Source of the DNA: an uncultured Gemmatimonadota bacterium
Lineage (GTDB): Bacteria > SM23-81 > DAOVCL01
Assembly: GCA_964626665.1 (NCBI GenBank)
Contig: CAZVGK010000036.1
Location: forward strand, 1-27,735
Direction of reading: 5' to 3'
DNA: 27,735 bases
A model generated the notes under the pieces. It saw only the letters and a list, made by a program, of their open reading frames with translations, had not been told where the DNA came from and searched no databases. This document shows, in pieces, positions 381 to 23,122 of this stretch (positions are counted from its first letter, which is position 1; each line of letters begins with the position of its first letter). Position numbers and translations under genes: made by a program.

Positions 381-3326
381 ATGGGGAAGGACGCCAAAGT
401 AAGGAAGAAAGCTCAAAGGTACGAGGAGAAGGGCAAATACAACAAGGCTATTAAGCTCTACGAAAAAATTAAGGACGATGGAGCAATAGCGAGATGCTAT
501 GAAAAAGCGGGCAATATCATAGATGCCTTTGAACTCTATGCTAAGCTTAGTGATAAGGATAATACCCAAAAGCTCAGACCGATATATGTGGAGAAGCTTA
601 AAGCCCTTCCTCCTTCTGTTAAGATTGCAGAAAAGTTTGAAAGACTGAAATTATTCAAGGAAGCGGCACAAATCTATGAAAGCATTGGTGCTTTTGAGCC
701 CAAGCTGCTCTGGGAATATGAAACTGGGGATTCAGTATTGGGTGTAGCCATTTCTGCGGATGGGAGTCGGATCGTCGCTGGTTCCGATGATTATAAGGTA
801 TATCTGTTTAACTCTGAAGGTGAACTGCTCTGGGAGTATGATCTGCCCCTTGGATCTGGGTTGTTACAGTGTGTGGGGATTAGTGCGGATGGGAGTCGGA
901 TCGTCGCTGGTTCCTTTGGTGAGGTATATCTATTTAACTCTGAAGGTGAACTGCTCTGGAAATATGAAACTGGGGATTCAGTATTGGGTGTAGCCATTTC
1001 TGCGGATGGGAGTCGGATCGTCGCTGGTTCCGATGATTATAAGGTATATCTGTTTAATTCTGAGGGCGAGCTGCTCTGGGAGTATGAAACGGGGAATATA
1101 GTATGGCGTGTAGCCATTTCTGCGGATAGGAGTCGGGTTGTCGCTGGTTCCGATGATCATAAGATATATCTATTTAACTCTGCGGGCGAGCTGCTCTGGG
1201 AGTATAAAACTGGGGATTCAGTAGAAGGTGTAGCCATTTCTGCGGATGGGAGTCGGATCGTCGCTGGTTCCGGTGACCATAAGGTATATCTATTTAACTC
1301 TGTGGGTAAGCTGCTCTGGAAGTATAGAACTGGGGGAGAGGTATATCCAAGTGTAGCCATTCCCGCGGATGGGAGTCGCATTGTGGCCAGTTCCCTGCCT
1401 GATAAAATATATCTACTTGGTTCTGAGGGTGAGTTACTGCGGGAATATGAAACTGGAGATATGCTCTTCCATTTGGGAATTACTATGGATGGAGACCGTG
1501 TTGTGGCTGGTTCAGACAATGTTGTGGCTGGCGTTATGGCTGGTTCAGACGATGGCGAGGCTGGCGTTGTGGCTGGTTCAAACGATGGTAAGGTATATTT
1601 GTTTGACACATTCTCCTCTCCTTCTTTACGGGCCATTGAGCTCTATCTCCTGCATTTGATAGGATCCCCGGAGGAACTGGAGGACAAAGCACTCGTTGCT
1701 CACATTAAACAGATTCTTAAAGAGTTGGATACAAAGAAAGCACTCATTGGTCACGTTAAGCAGATCCTCCCAAAGGTAAATACAAAACCCACGCTCAATA
1801 CTCTTCTTTCTGAAAGTAAAGATTATGCCACTATCTTTCGGATATGCTCTCGCTTAGGCATTGAAAGAGATGCTATTGATATATTGATAAAAAGAGGTGA
1901 ATACGAAGAGGCTCTCCAGTTATTAGATAGCATACCTGCGTCACAGTGGAGTCAAGAGGATCACCTCACTTCTCTCAGTATCTCTCTCAAGTTGCACAGG
2001 GATGACCTGGTTGAGGAAAGGCTTGTAAAGATATGGAAAAGGGGAGATTATAAGTCCATCTTTGGAGGCTTAACTGCTGAGGAACGTCTGCAAGTTATTG
2101 ATTTGCTGATGGAGAGAGGTCATGATGAAGAAGCACTAAGGGTATTAACCTCAAGGCCTGAAACTGAATGGGGGATGAAGGAACAGCTCACCCAGTTAAA
2201 GCTTTATGTAAGGCTTAACCTGACCGATATGGCGGAGAAGAAACTCTCCCAAATAAAGCAAGCAATAAGCGTCGATAGATCACCTGAGTTCTACTATGAA
2301 TTTGCTGCTTTCTGTGAAGAGGTGGGCAAATACCGCTTGGCGTTAGAGGTGTATTTACAGTTTATTGCCGGAAACATCATATACAAAGATGTATTGGACA
2401 GATATCGCCATCTTCAAGAGACCATTAGGCCTGAGGGCAAAGAAGCTTCGGGGGTTAAGCCTCGCAGACCAGTTGTAACTACGAGAGGGACGGTTACAGG
2501 GGGAGGAGAGGAACCCACTGGTCTTCACGCTGGTAAGTATGAGCTCTTGCGGCAAATAGGCAGTGGAGGTATGGGTATTGTTTATGAGGCGTTAAACAGG
2601 CAATTAGGAAAGAAGGTGGCGATCAAGAAGATGCGGGAGGAGATAAGGATTAGGCGGAGGGAGAGAGAAAGGTTTTTGAGGGAGGCACGCACAGTTGCAG
2701 AATTACACCACCCCAATATCGTTGATATTTATGACATCATTGAAGAGAATGATGAGATTTATCTTGTCTTTGAGTACATTGAAGGGAAGACGGTAGAAAA
2801 GATTCTTGATGAGGGATCAATTGGTTGGGAGGAGGCTGTCCAGATAATAGGGGATGTCTGCAAGGCATTGGGGTTTGCCCATAAGAATGGAGTTATCCAT
2901 CGTGATCTTAAGCCATCGAATATAATGGTTTCAAGGGAAGGGTATGCCAAGGTTATGGATTTTGGTATTGCCAGGGAAGCGAAGGAGACGATTTCGTCTG
3001 TCACTGGTCAAAGGGACACATCGGGCACACTTGCCTATATGCCACCTGAGCAACATCTGGGAAGGTGTGATATAAGGGGTGACATCTATGCTCTTGGGGT
3101 AACCTTTTATGAGATGTTGACTGGCCAGTTGCCCTTCAGGGGAGTAGATCTCTATGAGCAGAAGAGGCAGATGGTGTATGTCCCACCTTCCGAGCTTGGG
3201 GTTGAACAGCCGCAGGGGGTTGATGAGGTAATCAAGAAATGTCTGGAGGCGGAGAAGGAGAAAAGATACCCCTCGGTTGATGAGTTTGTGGAGGAGATTA
3301 AAAGGATTAAGTCAAGGGATGCCTGA
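381..3326 (+). CDS. Multidomain Hanks-type Ser/Thr protein kinase with N-terminal helical region, 7-blade WD40/PQQ-like beta-propeller and TPR-like region
   Basis: RBS GGAGG upstream. Seven ~40-aa repeats (LLWEYETGDSVLGVAISADGSRIVAGSDDYKVYLFNSEGE). C-terminal kinase motifs GSGGMG, VAIK, HRDLKPSN, DFG, MPPE, DIYALG. No signal peptide or TM segment seen. Confidence 0.92.
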   Translation: MGKDAKVRKKAQRYEEKGKYNKAIKLYEKIKDDGAIARCYEKAGNIIDAFELYAKLSDKDNTQKLRPIYVEKLKALPPSVKIAEKFERLKLFKEAAQIYESIGAFEPKLLWEYETGDSVLGVAISADGSRIVAGSDDYKVYLFNSEGELLWEYDLPLGSGLLQCVGISADGSRIVAGSFGEVYLFNSEGELLWKYETGDSVLGVAISADGSRIVAGSDDYKVYLFNSEGELLWEYETGNIVWRVAISADRSRVVAGSDDHKIYLFNSAGELLWEYKTGDSVEGVAISADGSRIVAGSGDHKVYLFNSVGKLLWKYRTGGEVYPSVAIPADGSRIVASSLPDKIYLLGSEGELLREYETGDMLFHLGITMDGDRVVAGSDNVVAGVMAGSDDGEAGVVAGSNDGKVYLFDTFSSPSLRAIELYLLHLIGSPEELEDKALVAHIKQILKELDTKKALIGHVKQILPKVNTKPTLNTLLSESKDYATIFRICSRLGIERDAIDILIKRGEYEEALQLLDSIPASQWSQEDHLTSLSISLKLHRDDLVEERLVKIWKRGDYKSIFGGLTAEERLQVIDLLMERGHDEEALRVLTSRPETEWGMKEQLTQLKLYVRLNLTDMAEKKLSQIKQAISVDRSPEFYYEFAAFCEEVGKYRLALEVYLQFIAGNIIYKDVLDRYRHLQETIRPEGKEASGVKPRRPVVTTRGTVTGGGEEPTGLHAGKYELLRQIGSGGMGIVYEALNRQLGKKVAIKKMREEIRIRRRERERFLREARTVAELHHPNIVDIYDIIEENDEIYLVFEYIEGKTVEKILDEGSIGWEEAVQIIGDVCKALGFAHKNGVIHRDLKPSNIMVSREGYAKVMDFGIAREAKETISSVTGQRDTSGTLAYMPPEQHLGRCDIRGDIYALGVTFYEMLTGQLPFRGVDLYEQKRQMVYVPPSELGVEQPQGVDEVIKKCLEAEKEKRYPSVDEFVEEIKRIKSRDA
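705..1610 (+). repeat. Intragenic ~120-bp tandem repeats encoding propeller blades
   Basis: Units start at 705, 825, 951, 1071, 1191, 1311 and ~1434. Units 1 and 3 are nearly identical at the DNA level. Confidence 0.95.
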
Positions 3327-3366
3327 GGGGAGGAAGTTCCCGCTACATCTGAGGGGAGTATGAACT

Positions 3367-15893: not shown

Positions 15894-15966
15894 AAGGAGT
15901 GGGGTCAGGCTGAAAAATAGAAATTATGTTTGATAGAGCCGATAAGATGTGGCACAATATTTAACG

Positions 15967-16095
15967 ATGGCAAGGAAACCGAGAATAGAATATCCTGGTG
16001 CGTTCTATCATGTGATAGCACGGGGGAATCGTAGGGAACCTATATTTGGAGATGCTCAGGATAGAGAAAGGTTCTTGAGCAAACTCTCAGGATAC
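15967..16095 (+). pseudogene. 5' fragment of a Y1/HUH (RAYT/IS200-like) transposase
   Basis: MARKPRIEYPGAFYHVIARGNRREPIFGDAQDRERFL is a typical N-terminus. Truncated before the HUH motif. Preceded by TGGGGTCAGG at 15900-15909. Confidence 0.85.
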
Positions 16096-16137
16096 TTGGT
16101 AGTTATTTCTATTTCTTGGCTCCATCTTAACATCAAA

Positions 16138-16350
16138 TTATGACGAGGCCCCTGTTGGGACCACTTGATACTCTATCCGCTGGGGCAATTCAACCCGTCG
16201 CGAAGCGTCAAGTATCTCCAGCGAAACCAGGTTCCCCGATGCATCATAATCAAGAATTATCCCCGGTTTGCCTTCATCGCTCTCCGCCACTGGCGTATCA
16301 GCAAAAATAACCGTCAACGTGTCTGTGTCGTTATCATAAACCACCTTCAT
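16138..16350 (-). CDS. DUF2283-family protein (putative antitoxin)
   Basis: MKVVYDNDTDTLTV...ESDE...ILDYDASGNLVSLEILDAS. Confidence 0.85.
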   Translation of the reverse strand: MKVVYDNDTDTLTVIFADTPVAESDEGKPGIILDYDASGNLVSLEILDASRRVELPQRIEYQVVPTGASS

Positions 16351-16634
16351 TTCCTTGCCCTCCAATACTTCTCAACTTTACTGGTCCAGTACGCTGTCAC
16401 GACTTCCGGCGGTTCCCGGCGAACATCTACAAAGACCCGCAACAGGTAGACCTTGGGTGGGCCCCCTCGCTCAAATCGTGATTGGTAGACCACTCGCCCG
16501 GGGCGTAGGATTTTAGCTTGCTCAGGCGCTGACAAAACATAGCCAACTTCATTCTCCTTGATGTTACGCCATCCCATCTCAAATCGGGCGTGCGCTGTCA
16601 AACGGTATTCTTTGACCGGCGGTATCCCCGCCAT
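16347..16634 (-). CDS. DUF4258-family protein (putative RelE-fold toxin)
   Basis: LTAHARFEM...LLRVFVD...VVTAYWTSK. ATGA overlap with the DUF2283 gene. Confidence 0.8.
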   Translation of the reverse strand: MAGIPPVKEYRLTAHARFEMGWRNIKENEVGYVLSAPEQAKILRPGRVVYQSRFERGGPPKVYLLRVFVDVRREPPEVVTAYWTSKVEKYWRARK

Positions 16635-16784
16635 ATCCTACCAAATTATATGGAATTGTGGCCCTACTTCACATCCCCTATCCATTATGCCTATACGATC
16701 TCCAGATAAACCGCTCTTGGCTACACCCAAGTCGTTCCAACATCCTATGGGAAAAATAGAAGTTCTTATCTTTCCCCAAAATAA

Positions 16785-16824
16785 TACGCCGCCGGGGAAT
16801 CGAACCCCGAACCTACTGATTAAG
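16785..16824 (-). repeat. att direct repeat: duplicate of the tRNA-Lys(CTT) 3' half
   Basis: 40-bp exact match to 22974-23013, ending in the anticodon loop. Confidence 0.95.
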
Positions 16825-17100
16825 GATCAGGGAAACAGGGAACAGTGGTCCAGAGAGTGCTTTAATTCTTCCCTTTTTTCTCGGCTATAATGCGATTGCT
16901 ATATGAGTTAGTTGCGCCTAATGGCGGGCAACTTCTGCCCCCTACCCATCCCTAACTACTCCACAGCCACTTAAGCCACATTTCCCTCGCTGCGTTGGCC
17001 TAAAGCTAATGTCTCATAGCAGCCGTCGCTGAAAGACTTTTCCTTCAAATCCTTACACACTCTCGGCACCACCGGACCCTATATCTCCGTTAGGCTCACT

Positions 17101-17391
17101 CTATATGCGGTCTTTCCAATAATCTGGCTTTCTGTGGAGGTTCGCGATTGCGACTATCAGAATTTCGTCTTTTCGGGTTTGGTAGATGATTCCATAGGGG
17201 AAACGCCAGGTTTGACACCTTCTCGTTCGCTTTGAGTAAGGATACCATGCTTCGGGAAATTTCCCTATTCTATCAAGAGCCTTCAAGACTTCAGTCTGAA
17301 ACACTTCTCCGAGTCCGGGGGCCTCACGGTTGTAATACTCGATAGCCTCATCCAGTTCGATCTGGGCGATCTCTAAGAACCGAATCCGCAC
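17101..17391 (-). CDS. RelE/ParE-family toxin
   Basis: AQIELDEAIEYY...GLG...FPEAW...RFPYGIIY...IVAIANLHRKPDYW. Confidence 0.9.
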   Translation of the reverse strand: MRIRFLEIAQIELDEAIEYYNREAPGLGEVFQTEVLKALDRIGKFPEAWYPYSKRTRRCQTWRFPYGIIYQTRKDEILIVAIANLHRKPDYWKDRI

Positions 17392-17399
17392 CTTTAAAC

Positions 17400-17612
17400 C
17401 TACTTATATTTTTTAAGAACCTCTTCCAAAGTAACAGCCTTAATCTTTCCTTGTTCGTAAGCATCGATTCGGCTCTCGGCCTCCTTGGCCCATAAATCGT
17501 CAATTTCTTGATCAGGTTTATCAAGGCTATAAAGTAGCTTGTCAATTAACTCTGCTTTTTCTGCAGGCCTTAAAGTTAATGCTTCTTCTAAAATTTTGTA
17601 CGGAGCACCCAT
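17400..17612 (-). CDS. Addiction-module antitoxin (TIGR02574-like)
   Basis: ALTLRPAEKAELIDKLLYSLD...WAKEAESRIDAYEQG. Directly upstream of the RelE/ParE gene. Confidence 0.88.
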   Translation of the reverse strand: MGAPYKILEEALTLRPAEKAELIDKLLYSLDKPDQEIDDLWAKEAESRIDAYEQGKIKAVTLEEVLKKYK

Positions 17613-17667
17613 TCTTACTTCCCTTCTATCCATAAGCGTTCACATACTCTTTGTCTGAAATCATTTA

Positions 17668-17730
17668 GCCTAATAGCAAAGCTCAGCGAGGGCGGATTTA
17701 TCTGCCGTCCGTTGCAACGATTGGTTAGGT
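17668..17730 (-). other. attC site (core ATT instead of GTT)
   Basis: Minus strand ACCTAAC CAATCGTTGCAACGGACGGC...CGCTGAGCTTTGCT ATTAGGC. It overlaps the stop codon of the DUF2442 gene. Confidence 0.8.
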
Positions 17731-18141
17731 AGTCTTCTCCGCTGCAATTTCTTGTTCTATCCATTTTGGTAGCGGTTCACAAGTTGCTTTGGAGTAAAGA
17801 GTTTCAGGGGCTATGTCTACATCTTCTCCCCAGAAGAGTGTCCCCAAATCACGGTTGGCTTCAAACCGTTTGAAGTATTCCGGATTTTTGAGTTTCCCAA
17901 AGATACCACCTTTCTGTGTATAGCCCAATCTATTCATAAATTAGGGTGAGGATCTCCGATACTCATAGATTTTATGTTGTAGGGACAGGGCTTCAGCCCT
18001 GTCCGGGGAGAACGGACAGACATAAATGTCTGTCCCTACGGAATGACCAGATAACCTCTGGATAATGGGGCCGTCATTAGTTTATGAATAATGCAGGATA
18101 GGGGAGAAAATCGATTACGCCTGTCTTCCCATTCTCAAATT
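17725..18141 (-). pseudogene. DUF2442-family gene interrupted by a MITE and 5'-truncated
   Basis: Removing 17924-18097 plus one ATAG restores FENGKTGVIDFLPY-TQKGGIFGKLKNPEYF...GTLFWGEDVDIAPETLY. Confidence 0.85.
17924..18097. mobile_element. 174-bp MITE with 4-bp TSD (ATAG)
   Basis: TIRs CCCAATCTATTCATAAATTA and (reverse complement) CCTGCATTATTCATAAACTA. ATAG at 17920-17923 and 18098-18101. Internal GTAG...CTAC REP pair at 17978-18039. Confidence 0.9.
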
Positions 18142-18250
18142 TCGAGAAAGATCGAGGTTAAACCTTCAATTGACAATCTAAAGTTGCCTGGCACTTGCCC
18201 TGAGCTAAGAGTCTCTCACCATAATTGGTATTTAAAGGTTTGACCCCAAA

Positions 18251-18295
18251 TGTGCTTGCGTGTGAAGCGCTGTCGGCTCCAGCGAGCTGTTAGCG
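18251..18295 (-). other. Truncated attC (left half)
   Basis: CGCTAAC AGCTCGCTGGAGCCGAC... is complementary to the cassette core GTTAGCG at 18724-18730. It is cut off at a TGACCCC motif. Confidence 0.7.
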
Positions 18296-18299
18296 ATTA

Positions 18300-18683
18300 C
18301 TATTGTGAAGCCAAAAATCCTCCGATGACTGCTAAAATTGGTTTCAGTTTCTTTTGAATTGGATCTACCTCCACACCGAAATTTTCCAAGGCTGTAGCTC
18401 CTATCAGGAATAGTGAGCCTTTTCGCGCGAAAATCACCGGGCAAGGAATAATACCTTCTAGACCTTCAATCTGAAAATTGCAAAAGCCAAGCAGTCTCGT
18501 ATCTTTTCGTCCATCTGCAAGTATAAGATTCCGCTTAACGGATGGCTCCACACCTATCCTTTCAAGGTAATCCTCAGGAACAAAGGAATAAAGAGCTCCT
18601 GTATCCACCCAAAACTCCTCTTCAAAAAATTGATCAGGGTCTTGGCTGTTGGAGACTTTTACCTTTTTCTTGAACATGCCCAT
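18300..18683 (-). CDS. Clan AA (retropepsin-like) aspartyl protease, gene cassette
   Basis: VDTGA catalytic motif, LADG and LIGATALE. Confidence 0.88.
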   Translation of the reverse strand: MGMFKKKVKVSNSQDPDQFFEEEFWVDTGALYSFVPEDYLERIGVEPSVKRNLILADGRKDTRLLGFCNFQIEGLEGIIPCPVIFARKGSLFLIGATALENFGVEVDPIQKKLKPILAVIGGFLASQ

Positions 18684-18723
18684 ATTGTTGCTCCTCTTTA
18701 TTACAATATTTCCTTGTCATTAT

Positions 18724-18782
18724 CGCTAACGCTTGAGTTCAGCCGCCGCTGTAAAGCGGTCGGCTGGAATGAATGGTTAGGC
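18724..18782 (-). other. Canonical 59-bp attC site
   Basis: GCCTAAC CATTCATTCCAGCCGACCGC TTTACA GCGGCGGCTGAACTCAAGC GTTAGCG. Confidence 0.93.
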
Positions 18783-18821
18783 CAATCATGTATCAAGTCA
18801 AGACCTGATATTATGAAAAAG

Positions 18822-18850
18822 TTGCACATCTCGCATTTTGGTTGTATAAT
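18822..18850 (+). promoter_or_regulatory. sigma70 promoter for the IS transposase
   Basis: TTGCAC-17 bp-TATAAT. Confidence 0.7.
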
Positions 18851-18891
18851 GAGGGTTAGAGGAAGAAACCTAAAGCAGAGGGGGTGCAACT

Positions 18892-19935
18892 ATGTTATAT
18901 GTCGGTGTTGACTTTCATAAGAAGTATTCACACATCACTGAGATGGATGAAAGGGGTACCATCAGCCGACAATTCAGGTTATCTAATGAGCGGGAATCTC
19001 TCATCCAATATGTAGACTACCTTCCCTCACACAGCGGAGTGGCTGTAGAGGCGACTTATAATTGGTACTACTTCTATAAGCTGCTTGAAGGGCATGATAT
19101 TGATGTCTCCCTTGCTCATCCTGCTAAGACCAAAGCGATAGCCTCTGCCAGGATAATGAATGACAAGATCAGTTCAACTATACTGGCAGACCTTTTGCGC
19201 ACCAACTATCTGCCCACTGCCTATATCCCCCCCAGAGAGGTGAGAGATACCAGAGAGGTCCTTCGCTCCCGTGCCTTCCTGGTTGCCATGCGCACCCGGT
19301 TGAAGAACAGAGTCCATGCCATTCTCTCCAAGAATGGGCTGGAATCCCCATATACCGATATCTTTGGCAAAAAGAGCCTTAAGTGGCTTAAAGGGTTGGA
19401 ACTACGCCCCTGCTATCGCCAGCCCTTAGATAGCTACATCCGCCTGGCAGACTCCTTCGGCAAGGAGACAGAGCTGATCACCCAGACTATTCAGTCCTTG
19501 GCTATAGAAAGTCCTCAGGCCCGACTACTGGACACCCATCCGGGCATTAGTTACTACTCTGCCCTACTGATAGCCACAGAGATTGGCACTATTGATCGTT
19601 TCCCTACCCATGGACAACTCTGCTCTTATGCCGGGTTGGTGCCCTCGGTTCATTCCTCTGGGGGGAAGACTCGTCTGGGCTCTATCACCAAACAGGGCTC
19701 TAAGTGGTTAAGGTGGATACTGATTGAGTGTTCCTCCCATGCGGCAAGGGGCTCAGCACGGTATAAGTCCCTGTATGCCCGGGTAGCTTATAGGCATGGG
19801 AAGGCAGTGGCCAGAGTTGCAGTGGCCAGGAGCATGCTTAGGGTGATGTATTACATGCTCAAATATAACAGGCCGTTTCAAGAGCACCCCGTATTGGGCG
19901 GTCTCCAGTTAGCACCATGGGGTCATAACCTTTGA
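18892..19935 (+). CDS. IS110-family DEDD recombinase/transposase
   Basis: YVGVDFHK, VEAT, NDKIS, PGI, YAGLVP..HSSGG and ITKQGSKWLRW. Confidence 0.95.
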   Translation: MLYVGVDFHKKYSHITEMDERGTISRQFRLSNERESLIQYVDYLPSHSGVAVEATYNWYYFYKLLEGHDIDVSLAHPAKTKAIASARIMNDKISSTILADLLRTNYLPTAYIPPREVRDTREVLRSRAFLVAMRTRLKNRVHAILSKNGLESPYTDIFGKKSLKWLKGLELRPCYRQPLDSYIRLADSFGKETELITQTIQSLAIESPQARLLDTHPGISYYSALLIATEIGTIDRFPTHGQLCSYAGLVPSVHSSGGKTRLGSITKQGSKWLRWILIECSSHAARGSARYKSLYARVAYRHGKAVARVAVARSMLRVMYYMLKYNRPFQEHPVLGGLQLAPWGHNL

Positions 19936-20035
19936 GGTTCTCGGTTTGATTGCGCGGCTGGTGTCCAATAATATACTGTGCCTTGAGCACGTATAGGTGA
20001 CTGACAAGTAGTCCTTAAGACTCTATTGGACAGTT
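19905..20035 (+). ncRNA. Putative bridge/seek RNA of the IS1111 element
   Basis: Two stem-loops, each with two guide segments flanking a small hairpin. The guides match the target flanks and the element's own ends. Boundaries are approximate. Confidence 0.75.
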
Positions 20036-20171
20036 ATTTAATCTCAAAGAACAAAGGAGGGAAAACTTTACGGCACAGAAAAACTACCATAATACCCAGG
20101 GGTGAGTGGCAACTTTTTCATAGGTGACCCCATTATCCTTTCGATTCGCCGTTTCGCGCGCGGGTCATCAA

Positions 20172-20516
20172 TTACTTCCCCTCATCCAGGATACGGTCGA
20201 GTACCTCGATAAGTTCAGGAAGATTTGTCTGAACCGTATCCCATAGGATGTCGTAATCCACAAAGTCGTATCCGTGAATTAAGCGATGGCGCATGCCAAT
20301 GACTTCCGGCCAGGGGATTTGCGGATACTGCGCCTGTACGTCAGCGGGAACTTGACTTGCTGCCTCTCCCACCAATTCCACCAAGTGGGTCAGGGCCAGC
20401 CGGAGCATCTCGTTCGAATCCAGATCCTCACGTCTCTGCCCCTGGATTATATCGACGGCTCTGCGTGCATAGTCCCGCATGTGCTGCAACCGCACCTTCG
20501 GATCACGCCTGGACAT
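20172..20516 (-). CDS. HepT-like (DUF86/HEPN) ribonuclease toxin
   Basis: VGEAA...[15 protein letters not shown] contains the R-x4-H HEPN motif. Confidence 0.9.
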
Positions 20517-20808
20517 ACTGTACCTCTGCCTCTTGCATAACTTCATCGCGGAAATACTTACTCAGGCTCTTCGGCGTGTTCATATCCACTTTCCGGCCTC
20601 CCAGAAGGCGCGAGAGCTCCTGCTCCATATCGTAAAGCTCGAAGAACCCCACCCGCGCACCTGGCTCAAACTCCACCAGCACGTCCACGTCGCTGCCGGA
20701 GGTGAAATCTTCGCGTAGCACCGATCCGAACAAGGCCAGACGGCGAATCCGATTGCGGCGGCAAAAATCAGCAAGTTTTTCTTTCGGTATCTCTATTTTT
20801 GCTTTCAC
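20503..20808 (-). CDS. Minimal nucleotidyltransferase (MNT) antitoxin; start uncertain
   Basis: [24 protein letters not shown] (GS-x10-DxD). Overlaps the HEPN gene. Confidence 0.9.
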
Positions 20809-20824
20809 GCCTGTATGTGAGAAA

Positions 20825-21129
20825 GGGGACACCTTTTGTAAGCCCTTATAAGCCAGAGATATAAATATTTTCCCCTCGATTGAACATCAGACCCTATGGC
20901 CAGAAAATAGTTACGCTATCAGAGAAGCAGATAAGAGACGGCTTACAGAACAGTTGCCGGAAGAGGAGAAATCGTTTAGGAGCAGCAAAGAGGTTGTTGG
21001 TGGGCCCCAGTTGCTGGGAGAGCTTTTACGGAGGCCGAGCCGCTTTCTGCGTCAGGAAAGGGTCGGAGATTCAAAGACTTAATTAGTTCCTAATATACTA
21101 TAACAAAAGGGATTGTAAAATGTGTCCCC
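20825..21129. mobile_element. 305-bp MITE-like element with GGGGACAC terminal inverted repeats
   Basis: Left GGGGACACCTTTTGTAAGCCCTT versus right (reverse complement) GGGGACACATTTTACAATCCCTT, 19/23 identical. No clear TSD. Confidence 0.75.
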
Positions 21130-22973: not shown

Positions 22974-23046
22974 TACGCCGCCGGGGAATCGAACCCCGAA
23001 CCTACTGATTAAGAGTCAGTTGCTCTACCAATTGAGCTAGCGGCGC
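22974..23046 (-). tRNA. tRNA-Lys(CTT)
   Basis: Cloverleaf GCGCCGC TAGCTCAATTGGTAGAGC..CTGA CT CTT AA TCAG..GGTTCGATTCC. CCA is not encoded. Confidence 0.96.
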
Positions 23047-23049
23047 ATA

Positions 23050-23122
23050 TGAGGGCGGAAGGGATCGAACCTTCGACCTACGGCTTAAAAGGCCGTTGCT
23101 CTACCAACTGAGCTACGCCCCC
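23050..23122 (-). tRNA. tRNA-Lys(TTT)
   Basis: GGGGGCG TAGCTCAGTTGGTAGAGC..CGGC CT TTT AA GCCG..GGTTCGATCCC. Confidence 0.96.

What the first reader, a model, noticed from the sequence alone, without database searches (positions are those of the whole stretch)
15900..20133. IS guide appears wobble-tuned to a dispersed (R)RYY|TGACCCC motif, with two empty targets in this window
Seen: the left-target guide GGTTTGA differs from the occupied site GACCTGA at three positions, all compatible with G:T or U:G wobble pairing. It matches exactly the unoccupied GGTTTGACCCCA at 18237-18248. A third copy, AGCCTGACCCCA (reverse complement of 15900-15911), sits just upstream of the Y1/RAYT-like transposase fragment and is also wobble-compatible. 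Known: some IS1111 members target attC sites, REPs or transposon ends. Inferred: this IS parasitises the ends of a Y1-transposase-associated element family and uses a G/U-rich guide to read variant copies. I am not aware of this target class or wobble strategy being described.
Basis: partly seen in the sequence, partly recalled or inferred. Interest (0 to 1): 0.8.

Follow-up and report, generated by a model that had tools for sequence, protein, structure and literature searches.

The report
Insertion sequence that targets TIRtron repeat tips
This is an RNA-guided IS1111-type insertion sequence whose guide is written for the tip of a repeat family that flanks Y1 (TIRYT) transposase genes; this copy sits in a sister repeat that differs from the guide only by G·T/U·G wobble pairs, which is a tidy natural example of a known kind of element rather than a new mechanism.

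Summary
The element at 18806-20124 is an IS1111-family IS with a 3' seekRNA (bridge RNA). Its right-target guide TGGGGTCA (19918-19925) matches the right flank TGACCCCA exactly. Its left-target guide GGTTTGA (19943-19949) differs from the occupied left flank GACCTGA at three positions, all wobble-compatible.

The target is now identified. It is the outermost 12 nt of the terminal inverted repeats of TIRtrons, which are Y1 "TIRYT" transposase genes with a DnaA-like C-terminal domain and a GGGGWSAS repeat tip, and of their solo copies.

More than 50 relatives from many phyla sit at the same position. Their right guide is near-constant and their left guide co-varies with the flank.

The "wobble-tuned" reading is only partly supported:
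- Three of 3 left junctions of the closest relatives, in two sister genomes, are exact GGTT sites. GGTT is therefore the cognate target and this copy is the exception.
- Across 59 unique left junctions, mismatches two and three bases from the core are 14 wobble-type, 0 non-wobble transitions and 1 transversion.
- One identical multicopy IS occupies exact sites (3) and single-G·T sites (5) only.

Wobble tolerance in bridge-RNA pairing is already published for IS110-type elements. I found no published IS110/IS1111–TIRtron link (one 'TIRYT' search).

The parts
18806..20124 (+). IS1111-family insertion sequence, 1319 bp. One copy of the TG core is counted at its left end.
   Evidence: The junctions were read. 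There is a single full copy in the genome. The 14-nt subterminal inverted repeats are 100% complementary (I7). The terminal extensions are 7 nt on the left (TGATATT) and 3 nt on the right (AGG), as given for the family in PMC11187229.
18892..19935 (+). DEDD transposase gene, 347 aa
   Evidence: PF01548 scores 6.1e-18 and PF02371 scores 1.3e-21. NF033542, IS110 family RNA-guided transposase, scores 218 bits against a cut-off of 140.
18812..18825 (+). Left subterminal inverted repeat TATGAAAAAGTTGC
   Evidence: I7.
20109..20122 (+). Right subterminal inverted repeat GCAACTTTTTCATA
   Evidence: I7.
19902..19964 (+). Target-binding loop of the seekRNA. The outer stem pairs 19902-19915 with 19952-19964 and encloses the RTG, a small hairpin and the LTG.
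   Evidence: RNAalifold on 39 relatives predicted 21 pairs, 16 of them with compensatory changes.
19918..19925 (+). Right-target guide TGGGGTCA, complementary to the top strand of TGACCCCA. It lies inside the last codons of the transposase gene.
   Evidence: It co-varies with the right flank in relatives: L046 has AGGGACA with flank TGTCCCT, and L104/L106 have GGTGTCA with flank TGACACC.
19943..19949 (+). Left-target guide GGTTTGA
   Evidence: It follows the RTG, which is the IS1111 order (top-strand match 5' of bottom-strand match; PMC11187229 section 9).
19967..19974 (+). Candidate right-donor guide AATAATAT, complementary to the IS left end ATATTAT
   Evidence: Read from the sequence. One co-varying position was seen against L005-type elements. 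This is an inference.
19993..20000 (+). Left-donor guide ATAGGTGA, identical to the IS right end plus core (ATAGG+TGA at 20120-20127)
   Evidence: ATAGGTGACTG is conserved in the 27-sequence alignment.
18784..18807 (-). Interior part of the occupied TIRtron-type repeat (...TATCAAGTCAAGACC+TG). It is the left half of the target.
   Evidence: It resembles the repeats flanking TIRYT genes in L005.
20125..20132 (-). Core TG plus ACCCCA: the tip of the occupied repeat and the right half of the target
18221..18248 (-). Unoccupied family-A repeat tip, ATAATTGGTATTTAAAGGTTTGACCCC plus A. It matches LTG and RTG exactly over 12 nt.
   Evidence: The same repeat family carries the IS in sister genomes.
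15900..15926 (+). Family-B repeat, TGGGGTCAGGCTGAAAAATAGAAATT. It is unoccupied and would need three wobble pairs with the LTG.
15967..16098 (+). N-terminal fragment (about 44 aa) of a TIRYT-type Y1 transposase gene
   Evidence: tblastn gives 55% identity to C2:90372 (E 4e-10) and 45% to the intact TIRYT on C58 (E 8e-6). Pfam finds nothing in the 58-aa fragment.

Best explanation
The element is an ordinary IS1111-family insertion sequence that selects its target with a 3'-encoded seekRNA (bridge RNA).

The right-target guide reads the near-universal tip of TIRtron inverted repeats, GGGGTCA (TGACCCC on the other strand). The left-target guide reads the next four, family-specific bases. Recombination at a TG core places the IS 5 nt inside the repeat tip, always in one orientation.

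The cognate site of this lineage is GGTT|TG|ACCCCA, the tip of repeat family A. The window copy lies in a different TIRtron-type repeat, GACC|TG|ACCCCA. It most likely got there because G·T and U·G pairs in the left guide are tolerated, helped by a perfect 8-nt right guide.

Shown: the IS anatomy, the guide positions, the identity of the target and the clade-wide wobble bias.
Inferred: that this particular insertion was made with the present guide, and that the RNA is expressed.
For: Family features are met.

Guides co-vary with flanks. In 59 unique left junctions, 209 of 236 positions from -1 to -4 are identical. In 48 unique right junctions, TGACCCC dominates. The loop architecture is supported by 16 of 21 pairs with compensatory changes.

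The target is the TIRtron repeat.
- The C58 gene carries Y1_Tnp plus Bac_DnaA_C and is flanked by inverted GGGGTCAGGTCTTCATTCTACA repeats.
- L005 and L075 show the same arrangement.
- The motif fits the published GGGGWSAS tip (PMC3733652 and PMC6006769, passages read).

Cognate site. The left junctions in sister genomes G001 (2) and G002 (1) are all ..TTAAAGGTTTGA| in family-A repeats. Five of 5 right junctions there read TGACCCCA. A metagenome contig of a relative (depth 355 and 196) shows no change in either guide.

Wobble.
- At -3 and -2 the counts are 14 wobble-type, 0 non-wobble transitions and 1 transversion.
- Over -1 to -4 they are 17, 4 and 6.
- Without the window, a binomial test against guide G/U content gives p = 0.07 for 4 positions and p = 0.009 for 3 positions.
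- In genome G041 an identical IS with guide GGCC has 8 left junctions: GGCC 3, GACC 4 and AGCC 1.
- None lies in the 67 listed unoccupied RRYY sites that would need a C·A pair. Fisher's test of 5 of 32 against 0 of 67 gives p = 0.003, with 100 of 107 sites listed.
Against: This junction is an outlier.
- No other of the 59 junctions has more than one wobble at -1 to -3.
- Its U·G next to the core is the only wobble at -1.
- In G041, 0 of 9 double-wobble AACC sites are occupied.
- In ISPpu10, an IS110-type element, the position next to the core tolerated no mismatch.

All 7 exact GGTTTGACCCCA sites in this genome are empty, one of them 560 bp from the IS.

No empty copy of the occupied site was found in sister genomes or in metagenome contigs. 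The pre-insertion sequence is therefore inferred.

The junctions are not independent: related IS lineages share guides. Repeat families differ mainly by transitions, which inflates the transition count.
Confidence: 0.5

Rival explanations
1. The guide changed after insertion. A sibling IS with guide GACC inserted at this GACC site by exact pairing. The guide later became GGTT, either by gene conversion from a co-resident GGTT-guided copy or by three transitions. On this reading the mismatch says nothing about how the site was chosen.
For: - A sibling remnant, L044, is 93% identical over the last 296 nt of the IS. It carries LTG GACCTGA and sits beside a GACC|TGACCCC repeat.
- Close relatives differ in the four guide bases (GGTT, GGTC, GACC) far more than in the surrounding RNA.
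- A decayed second element with the GGTT guide exists in this genome on C2.
- The triple wobble is unique among the 59 junctions.
Against: - Only one full copy is present now.
- The GGTT guide is the one shared with the C2 remnant and with the abundant metagenome relative.
- Differences between the window IS and L044 are spread along the RNA, with no conversion patch around the guide (reading output).
- Three random changes would all be wobble-compatible in only about 1 in 8 to 1 in 27 cases (my arithmetic, no call).
Confidence: 0.28
2. There is general mismatch tolerance in the distal left guide, not wobble-specific pairing. The perfect 8-nt right guide and the core do most of the work. The transitions simply reflect that TIRtron repeat families differ from each other by transitions (RRYY).
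For: - Positions -4 and -5 show transversions: 4 of 59 and 9 of 59.
- Four non-wobble transitions exist (L054, L083, L104, L106).
- ISPpu10 tolerates any substitution at distal LTG positions.
- The three commonest 4-mers before TGACCCC in this genome are all RRYY.
Against: - The direction is one-sided at -3 and -2: 14 guide-G/U cases against 0 guide-A/C cases.
- In G041 none of the 67 listed C·A-requiring RRYY sites is occupied.
Confidence: 0.15
3. The left flank is not the original one. Homologous recombination between two IS copies, by inversion or deletion, joined this IS to a foreign repeat.
For: The region is a mosaic of toxin-antitoxin cassettes, repeat tips and a truncated TIRYT gene.
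Against: - It would still need an IS at a GACC site in the first place.
- There is only one full copy in the genome.
- Both flanks together reconstitute a normal repeat tip, GACC-TG-ACCCCA.
Confidence: 0.05

Closest known systems
ISPa11, ISKpn4/ISPst6 and ISEc11 (IS1111 family with seekRNA; PMC11187229)
   Same: - DEDD transposase, subterminal inverted repeats and 7/3-nt extensions.
- The non-coding region lies downstream of the transposase gene.
- The top-strand match lies 5' of the bottom-strand match.
- Insertion is in one orientation into a repeated genomic sequence (REP or attC).
- Natural reprogramming occurs among relatives.
   Different: - The target here is the tip of TIRtron inverted repeats, not a REP hairpin or an attC site.
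- The right guide overlaps the end of the transposase reading frame.
- No RNA or transposition data exist for this element.
ISPpu10 and IS621 (IS110-type bridge recombinases)
   Same: - Two-loop guide logic with LTG/RTG and LDG/RDG.
- A U·G or G·T wobble is accepted at the LTG-LT interface, with position-dependent tolerance (preprint 10.64898/2026.03.19.712850, passages read).
- ISPpu10 also targets a Y1-associated repeat, the REP.
   Different: - Those RNAs are encoded upstream, with the guide order reversed and a CT core.
- One wobble is reported there. Here three wobbles in four bases would be needed.
TIRtrons / TIRYT (Di Nocera et al. 2013, PMC3733652; subclass 2.1 of Quentin et al. 2018, PMC6006769)
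   Same: The target element has a Y1 HUH transposase with a Bac_DnaA_C-like C-terminus, terminal inverted repeats with a GGGGWSAS tip, and solo and clustered repeat copies.
   Different: - Those papers mention no IS110/IS1111 insertions. The terms have 0 occurrences in PMC3733652.
- Family A here has GGGGTCAA, with A instead of S at position 8.
IS4321/IS5075 in the 38-bp inverted repeats of Tn21-type transposons (recalled, not read here)
   Same: An IS1111 member sits at a fixed position and in a fixed orientation inside another transposon's terminal inverted repeat, which also begins GGGG.
   Different: The host element is different (Tn3 family with a DDE transposase), and so are the position and the sequence.

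Membership tests
IS1111 family (within ISfinder 'IS110 family') | DEDD (RuvC-like) transposase with the IS110-type C-terminal domain | tested here: met
   PF01548 and PF02371. NF033542 scores 218 bits against a cut-off of 140.
IS1111 family (within ISfinder 'IS110 family') | Subterminal inverted repeats of about 11-13 bp | tested here: met
   18812-18825 and 20109-20122 are 14 nt long and 100% complementary. The feature is conserved in relatives.
IS1111 family (within ISfinder 'IS110 family') | Asymmetric terminal extensions, 7 bp on the left and 3 bp on the right | tested here: met
   TGATATT precedes the left repeat and AGG follows the right repeat, counting the repeat as ATGAAAAAGTTGC. The rule comes from PMC11187229.
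IS1111 family (within ISfinder 'IS110 family') | The long non-coding region lies downstream of the transposase gene and holds the target matches, top-strand match first | tested here: met
   There are 189 nt downstream (19936-20124) against 66 nt upstream. The RTG at 19918-19925 precedes the LTG at 19943-19949.
IS1111 family (within ISfinder 'IS110 family') | A seekRNA is produced and is needed for transposition; a circular intermediate forms | not testable with these tools
   Only assembled contigs of DNA runs were available. No circle junction or empty-site joint was seen. No Rfam family matched the region.
TIRtron / TIRYT (the target element) | Y1 HUH tyrosine transposase related to RAYTs | tested here: met
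   For the C58 protein, PF01797 scores 1e-9 and NF047646, REP-associated tyrosine transposase, scores 84 bits against a cut-off of 80.
TIRtron / TIRYT (the target element) | The gene is flanked by terminal inverted repeats rather than REP hairpins | tested here: met
   C58 has GGGGTCAGGTCTTCATTCTACA at one end and TGTAGAATGAAGACCTGACCC at the other. L005 and L075 are likewise flanked.
TIRtron / TIRYT (the target element) | Repeat tip fits GGGGWSAS | tested here: inconclusive
   Families B, C and D fit (GGGGTCAG and GGGGTCAC). Families A and E read GGGGTCAA, with A at position 8.
TIRtron / TIRYT (the target element) | C-terminal HTH of Bac_DnaA_C type (subclass 2.1) | tested here: met
   PF08299 scores 3.1e-12 over residues 235-286.

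The most novel reading that the evidence does not exclude
A widespread IS1111 clade is a dedicated hyperparasite of TIRtrons across many bacterial phyla. It keeps one guide fixed on the universal repeat tip. G·T/U·G wobble in the other guide serves as the stepping stone that lets it hop between repeat families and then re-write its guide.

In addition, copies that landed by wobble pair poorly with their own guide during excision, so they are retained. This would explain why the only full copy here sits in a triple-wobble site while all 7 exact sites are empty.
Probability: 0.3. Interest if true: 0.6.

Novelty: new member of a known kind. Interest (0 to 1): 0.42.

Why it matters
It adds a new target class, the tips of TIRtron inverted repeats, to the list of repeats used as landing pads by RNA-guided IS1111 elements. 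It also links two poorly studied mobile systems.

The comparison of 59 natural junctions gives a position-resolved picture of what the left guide tolerates:
- strict next to the core,
- wobble only at the next two bases,
- loose beyond that.

This picture agrees with mutagenesis of an IS110-type element and is relevant to off-target prediction for bridge and seekRNA editors.

For this window itself the finding is ordinary: one IS in a toxin-antitoxin and repeat island.

Tried and rejected
- **Integron reading.** Imperfect palindromes ending in GTTAGG/GTTAGC near the cassettes looked like attC sites. No integron integrase reached the family cut-off in the genome: the best hit was 140 bits against 265, and control genomes ring too. 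I did not pursue it.
- **Tn3-family repeat tips.** These also begin GGGGTC. I dropped the idea once the repeats were found flanking Y1/DnaA_C genes.
- **Promoter reading of TTGACC.** The spacing to a -10 box was not consistent (reading output).
- **Empty site in sister genomes.** Neither flank of the IS has a match in G001 or G002.
- **Empty site, circle junction or other insertion sites in public runs.** Only Logan contigs were served. No contig skips the IS, and one unrelated joint (18005 to 18222) was listed.
- **Rfam.** Only two tRNAs were found in the window, and no family covers the seekRNA.
- **Guides of the sister-genome copies.** No contig of G001 or G002 holds the guide region. Their guide is therefore inferred from a metagenome contig.
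- **Earlier findings of this scan.** These were closed to the session.
- **Right-junction extraction.** It was unreliable for L004 and L108, whose rows probably reflect mis-placed ends.
- **Supplementary files.** The supplements of the seekRNA and TIRYT papers were not seen. They may list targets or repeat tips that bear on the novelty claim.

Full report
**What is there**

The window holds one insertion sequence at 18806-20124.
- Its 347-aa gene (18892-19935) matches the two Pfam domains of IS110-family DEDD transposases. It also matches the NCBIfam model "IS110 family RNA-guided transposase" at 218 bits against a cut-off of 140.
- It has perfect 14-nt subterminal inverted repeats at 18812-18825 and 20109-20122.
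- Beyond these lie 7 nt on the left (TGATATT) and 3 nt on the right (AGG).
- The long non-coding region (189 nt) lies downstream of the gene.

These are the features that the seekRNA paper gives for the IS1111 family (PMC11187229, introduction and section 9 read). The genome (63 contigs, 3.17 Mb) has this single full copy plus two decayed right-end remnants on C1 and C2.

**The guides**

I aligned the 3' regions of relatives fetched from genome and metagenome collections. There were 41 loci from the first and 80 kept of 233 from the second.

The alignments show a conserved stem enclosing a loop. The loop carries a segment complementary to the right flank, then a small hairpin, then a segment identical to the left flank, followed by TTGCGCG. 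RNAalifold on 39 sequences predicts 21 pairs, 16 of them with compensatory changes.

In the window the guides are as follows:
- The right-target guide is TGGGGTCA (19918-19925), an exact complement of the flank TGACCCCA.
- The left-target guide is GGTTTGA (19943-19949).
- A second loop carries AATAATAT (19967-19974), matching the IS left end.
- It also carries ATAGGTGA (19993-20000), matching the IS right end plus core.

The shared dinucleotide TG is the likely core. In L046 the flanks share only TG, and both of its guides follow the changed target GGTC|TG|TCCCT.

**The observation**

- The occupied left flank is GACC+TGA (18802-18808) against guide GGTT+TGA. The three differences are all of the type guide G or U against bottom-strand T or G.
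- GGTTTGACCCCA at 18237-18248 and AGCCTGACCCCA (reverse complement of 15900-15911) are present as described.
- Two matches to RRYYTGACCCCA occur in the window, where 0.14 are expected.
- Genome-wide, TGACCCC alone is barely enriched: 534 copies against a 7-mer median of 322.
- The 4-mers in front of it are dominated by GGTT (13), AGCC (12) and GACC (12).

**What the motif is**

These sites are the last bases of several distinct repeat families. Each family is conserved up to TGACCCC and unique beyond it.
- For GGTT, 10 of 13 sites share ..TAAATTAGTAATTARA (family A).
- For AGCC, 9 of 12 share ..AATTTCTATTTTTC (family B).
- For GACC, all 12 lie in two repeat types.

Read on the other strand, the repeats begin GGGGTCA.

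On contig C58 such a repeat lies 66 nt upstream of a 323-aa gene with Y1_Tnp and Bac_DnaA_C domains. The inverted copy lies just behind the gene. Relatives L005 and L075 show the same arrangement, with the IS sitting in one of the two repeats.

This is the TIRtron/TIRYT class described by Di Nocera et al. 2013 (tip consensus GGGGWSAS). Quentin et al. 2018 placed it in TnpA-REP subclass 2.1, which has DnaA-like C-termini (passages read). The Y1 fragment at 15967-16098 is the start of such a gene, and 15900-15926 is its upstream repeat.

The element family has a name.

**How general it is**

In the junction listing, the majority of relatives down to about 45% protein identity sit at ..AG[R][Y][Y]-TG-ACCCC.., 5 nt from the repeat tip and in one orientation. 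They come from assemblies labelled Gemmatimonadota, Anaerolineales, Syntrophaceae, Nitrospirota, WOR-3, FCPU426 and others. The right guide is almost invariant (GGGGTCA). The left guide changes with the repeat family (AGATT, AGGTC, AGACC, GGCC, GGGC and others).

**Cognate target of this lineage**

- The two sister genomes carry copies that are 80-92% identical in DNA.
- Their three recoverable left junctions are all ..TTAAAGGTTTGA| within family-A repeats.
- Their five right junctions all read TGACCCCA.
- Their own guide region is not assembled.
- A metagenome contig of a relative, whose tail matches the G001 type, shows no listed change in either guide.
- A sibling remnant (L044), 93% identical over the last 296 nt, has guide GACC and lies next to a GACC repeat tip.

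The guide is therefore written for family A. The window copy is the one exception among 4 left junctions of the close group.

**Is wobble real?**

Among 59 unique left junctions, positions -1 to -4 from TGA show:
- 209 matches,
- 17 wobble-type mismatches,
- 4 non-wobble transitions,
- 6 transversions.

At -3 and -2 the counts are 14, 0 and 1. At -1, 55 of 59 match. At -4 and -5 transversions appear.

Without the window, and allowing for guide G/U content, the one-sided binomial p is 0.07 over four positions and 0.009 over three. These junctions are not independent.

The cleanest case is genome G041. One IS with guide GGCC has 8 left junctions: GGCC 3, GACC 4 and AGCC 1. The unoccupied RRYYTGACCCC sites listed (100 of 107) comprise:
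- GGCC 6,
- GACC 13,
- AGCC 5,
- AACC 9,
- 67 sites that would need a C·A pair.

Fisher's test of 5 of 32 against 0 of 67 gives p = 0.003.

This pattern agrees with mutagenesis of ISPpu10: strict next to the core, wobble only at the next position, loose distally. The same preprint states that a G·T wobble occurs at this interface in IS621 (passages read).

**Against the wobble reading of this copy**

- No other junction has more than one wobble at -1 to -3.
- The double-wobble AACC sites in G041 are unoccupied (0 of 9).
- All 7 exact sites in this genome are empty.
- No empty allele of the occupied site was found.

A change of guide after insertion remains a serious rival, given that GACC-guided siblings exist.

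**Novelty**

- The element is a new member of a known kind.
- Wobble tolerance is in print for IS110-type elements.
- The words "wobble" and "mismatch" do not occur in the IS1111 seekRNA paper.
- A search for "TIRYT" found 3 papers, 2 of them listed; I read passages of those two. "IS110" and "IS1111" have 0 occurrences in PMC3733652, and I did not search PMC6006769 for them. TIRtron tips as an IS1111 target class therefore seem undescribed in the library searched.

Noticed in passing
window 17979-18039: A doublet of hairpins with GTAG heads (GTAGGGACAGGGC... and ...GTCTGTCCCTAC) resembles a REPIN-type REP pair. Metagenome contig depth there is far above its surroundings, up to 627 against about 5.
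   Followed up: partly
L046 and L065 (metagenome loci): Relatives 87-90% identical in protein have both target guides re-written (GGTCTGA and AGGGACA). L046 sits in the stem of a GTAG-type REP hairpin (..ACAGACCTGAAGGTC|TG|TCCCTAC). L065 shows the same right flank (its left junction is not in the locus). Close kin thus switch between the two kinds of Y1-associated repeat.
   Followed up: partly
L131/L134 (G041:C28, about 109617-111088): One IS copy is followed directly by ..CATAGG|TGATTGAGCGGCCGG.., the sequence just after the left guide of the same IS. A copy therefore appears to have inserted into the guide-coding DNA of another copy, a self-targeting event.
   Followed up: no
G000:C58, about 3250-3350 (reverse strand): The right end of the intact TIRtron is tandemly duplicated together with 20 nt of flank (..GACCTGACCCTATGGATTTTGTGTGGATT twice). 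L044 shows a similar duplication of 16 nt of target flank around an IS fragment.
   Followed up: no
window 16138-20832: This stretch is an island of small minus-strand cassettes: DUF2283/DUF4258, ParE-like toxin with Unstab_antitox, DUF2442, an aspartyl-protease-like ORF and HepT/MNT. TIRtron-type repeat tips sit upstream of two of them and contain TTGAC-like boxes that read into the genes.
   Followed up: partly
window 17649-17715 and 18722-18795: Imperfect palindromes bounded by GCCTAAT...GGTTAGG and CGCTAAC...GGTTAGGCC resemble attC sites. No integron integrase above cut-off was found in the genome.
   Followed up: partly
window 19913: The base next to the right guide is A where relatives have G (agcAcc against agcGcc). 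This is a synonymous change that puts an A·C mismatch in the stem closing the target-binding loop.
   Followed up: no
window 22974-23122: Two tRNA genes lie on the minus strand (Rfam scores 72 and 77 bits).
   Followed up: no
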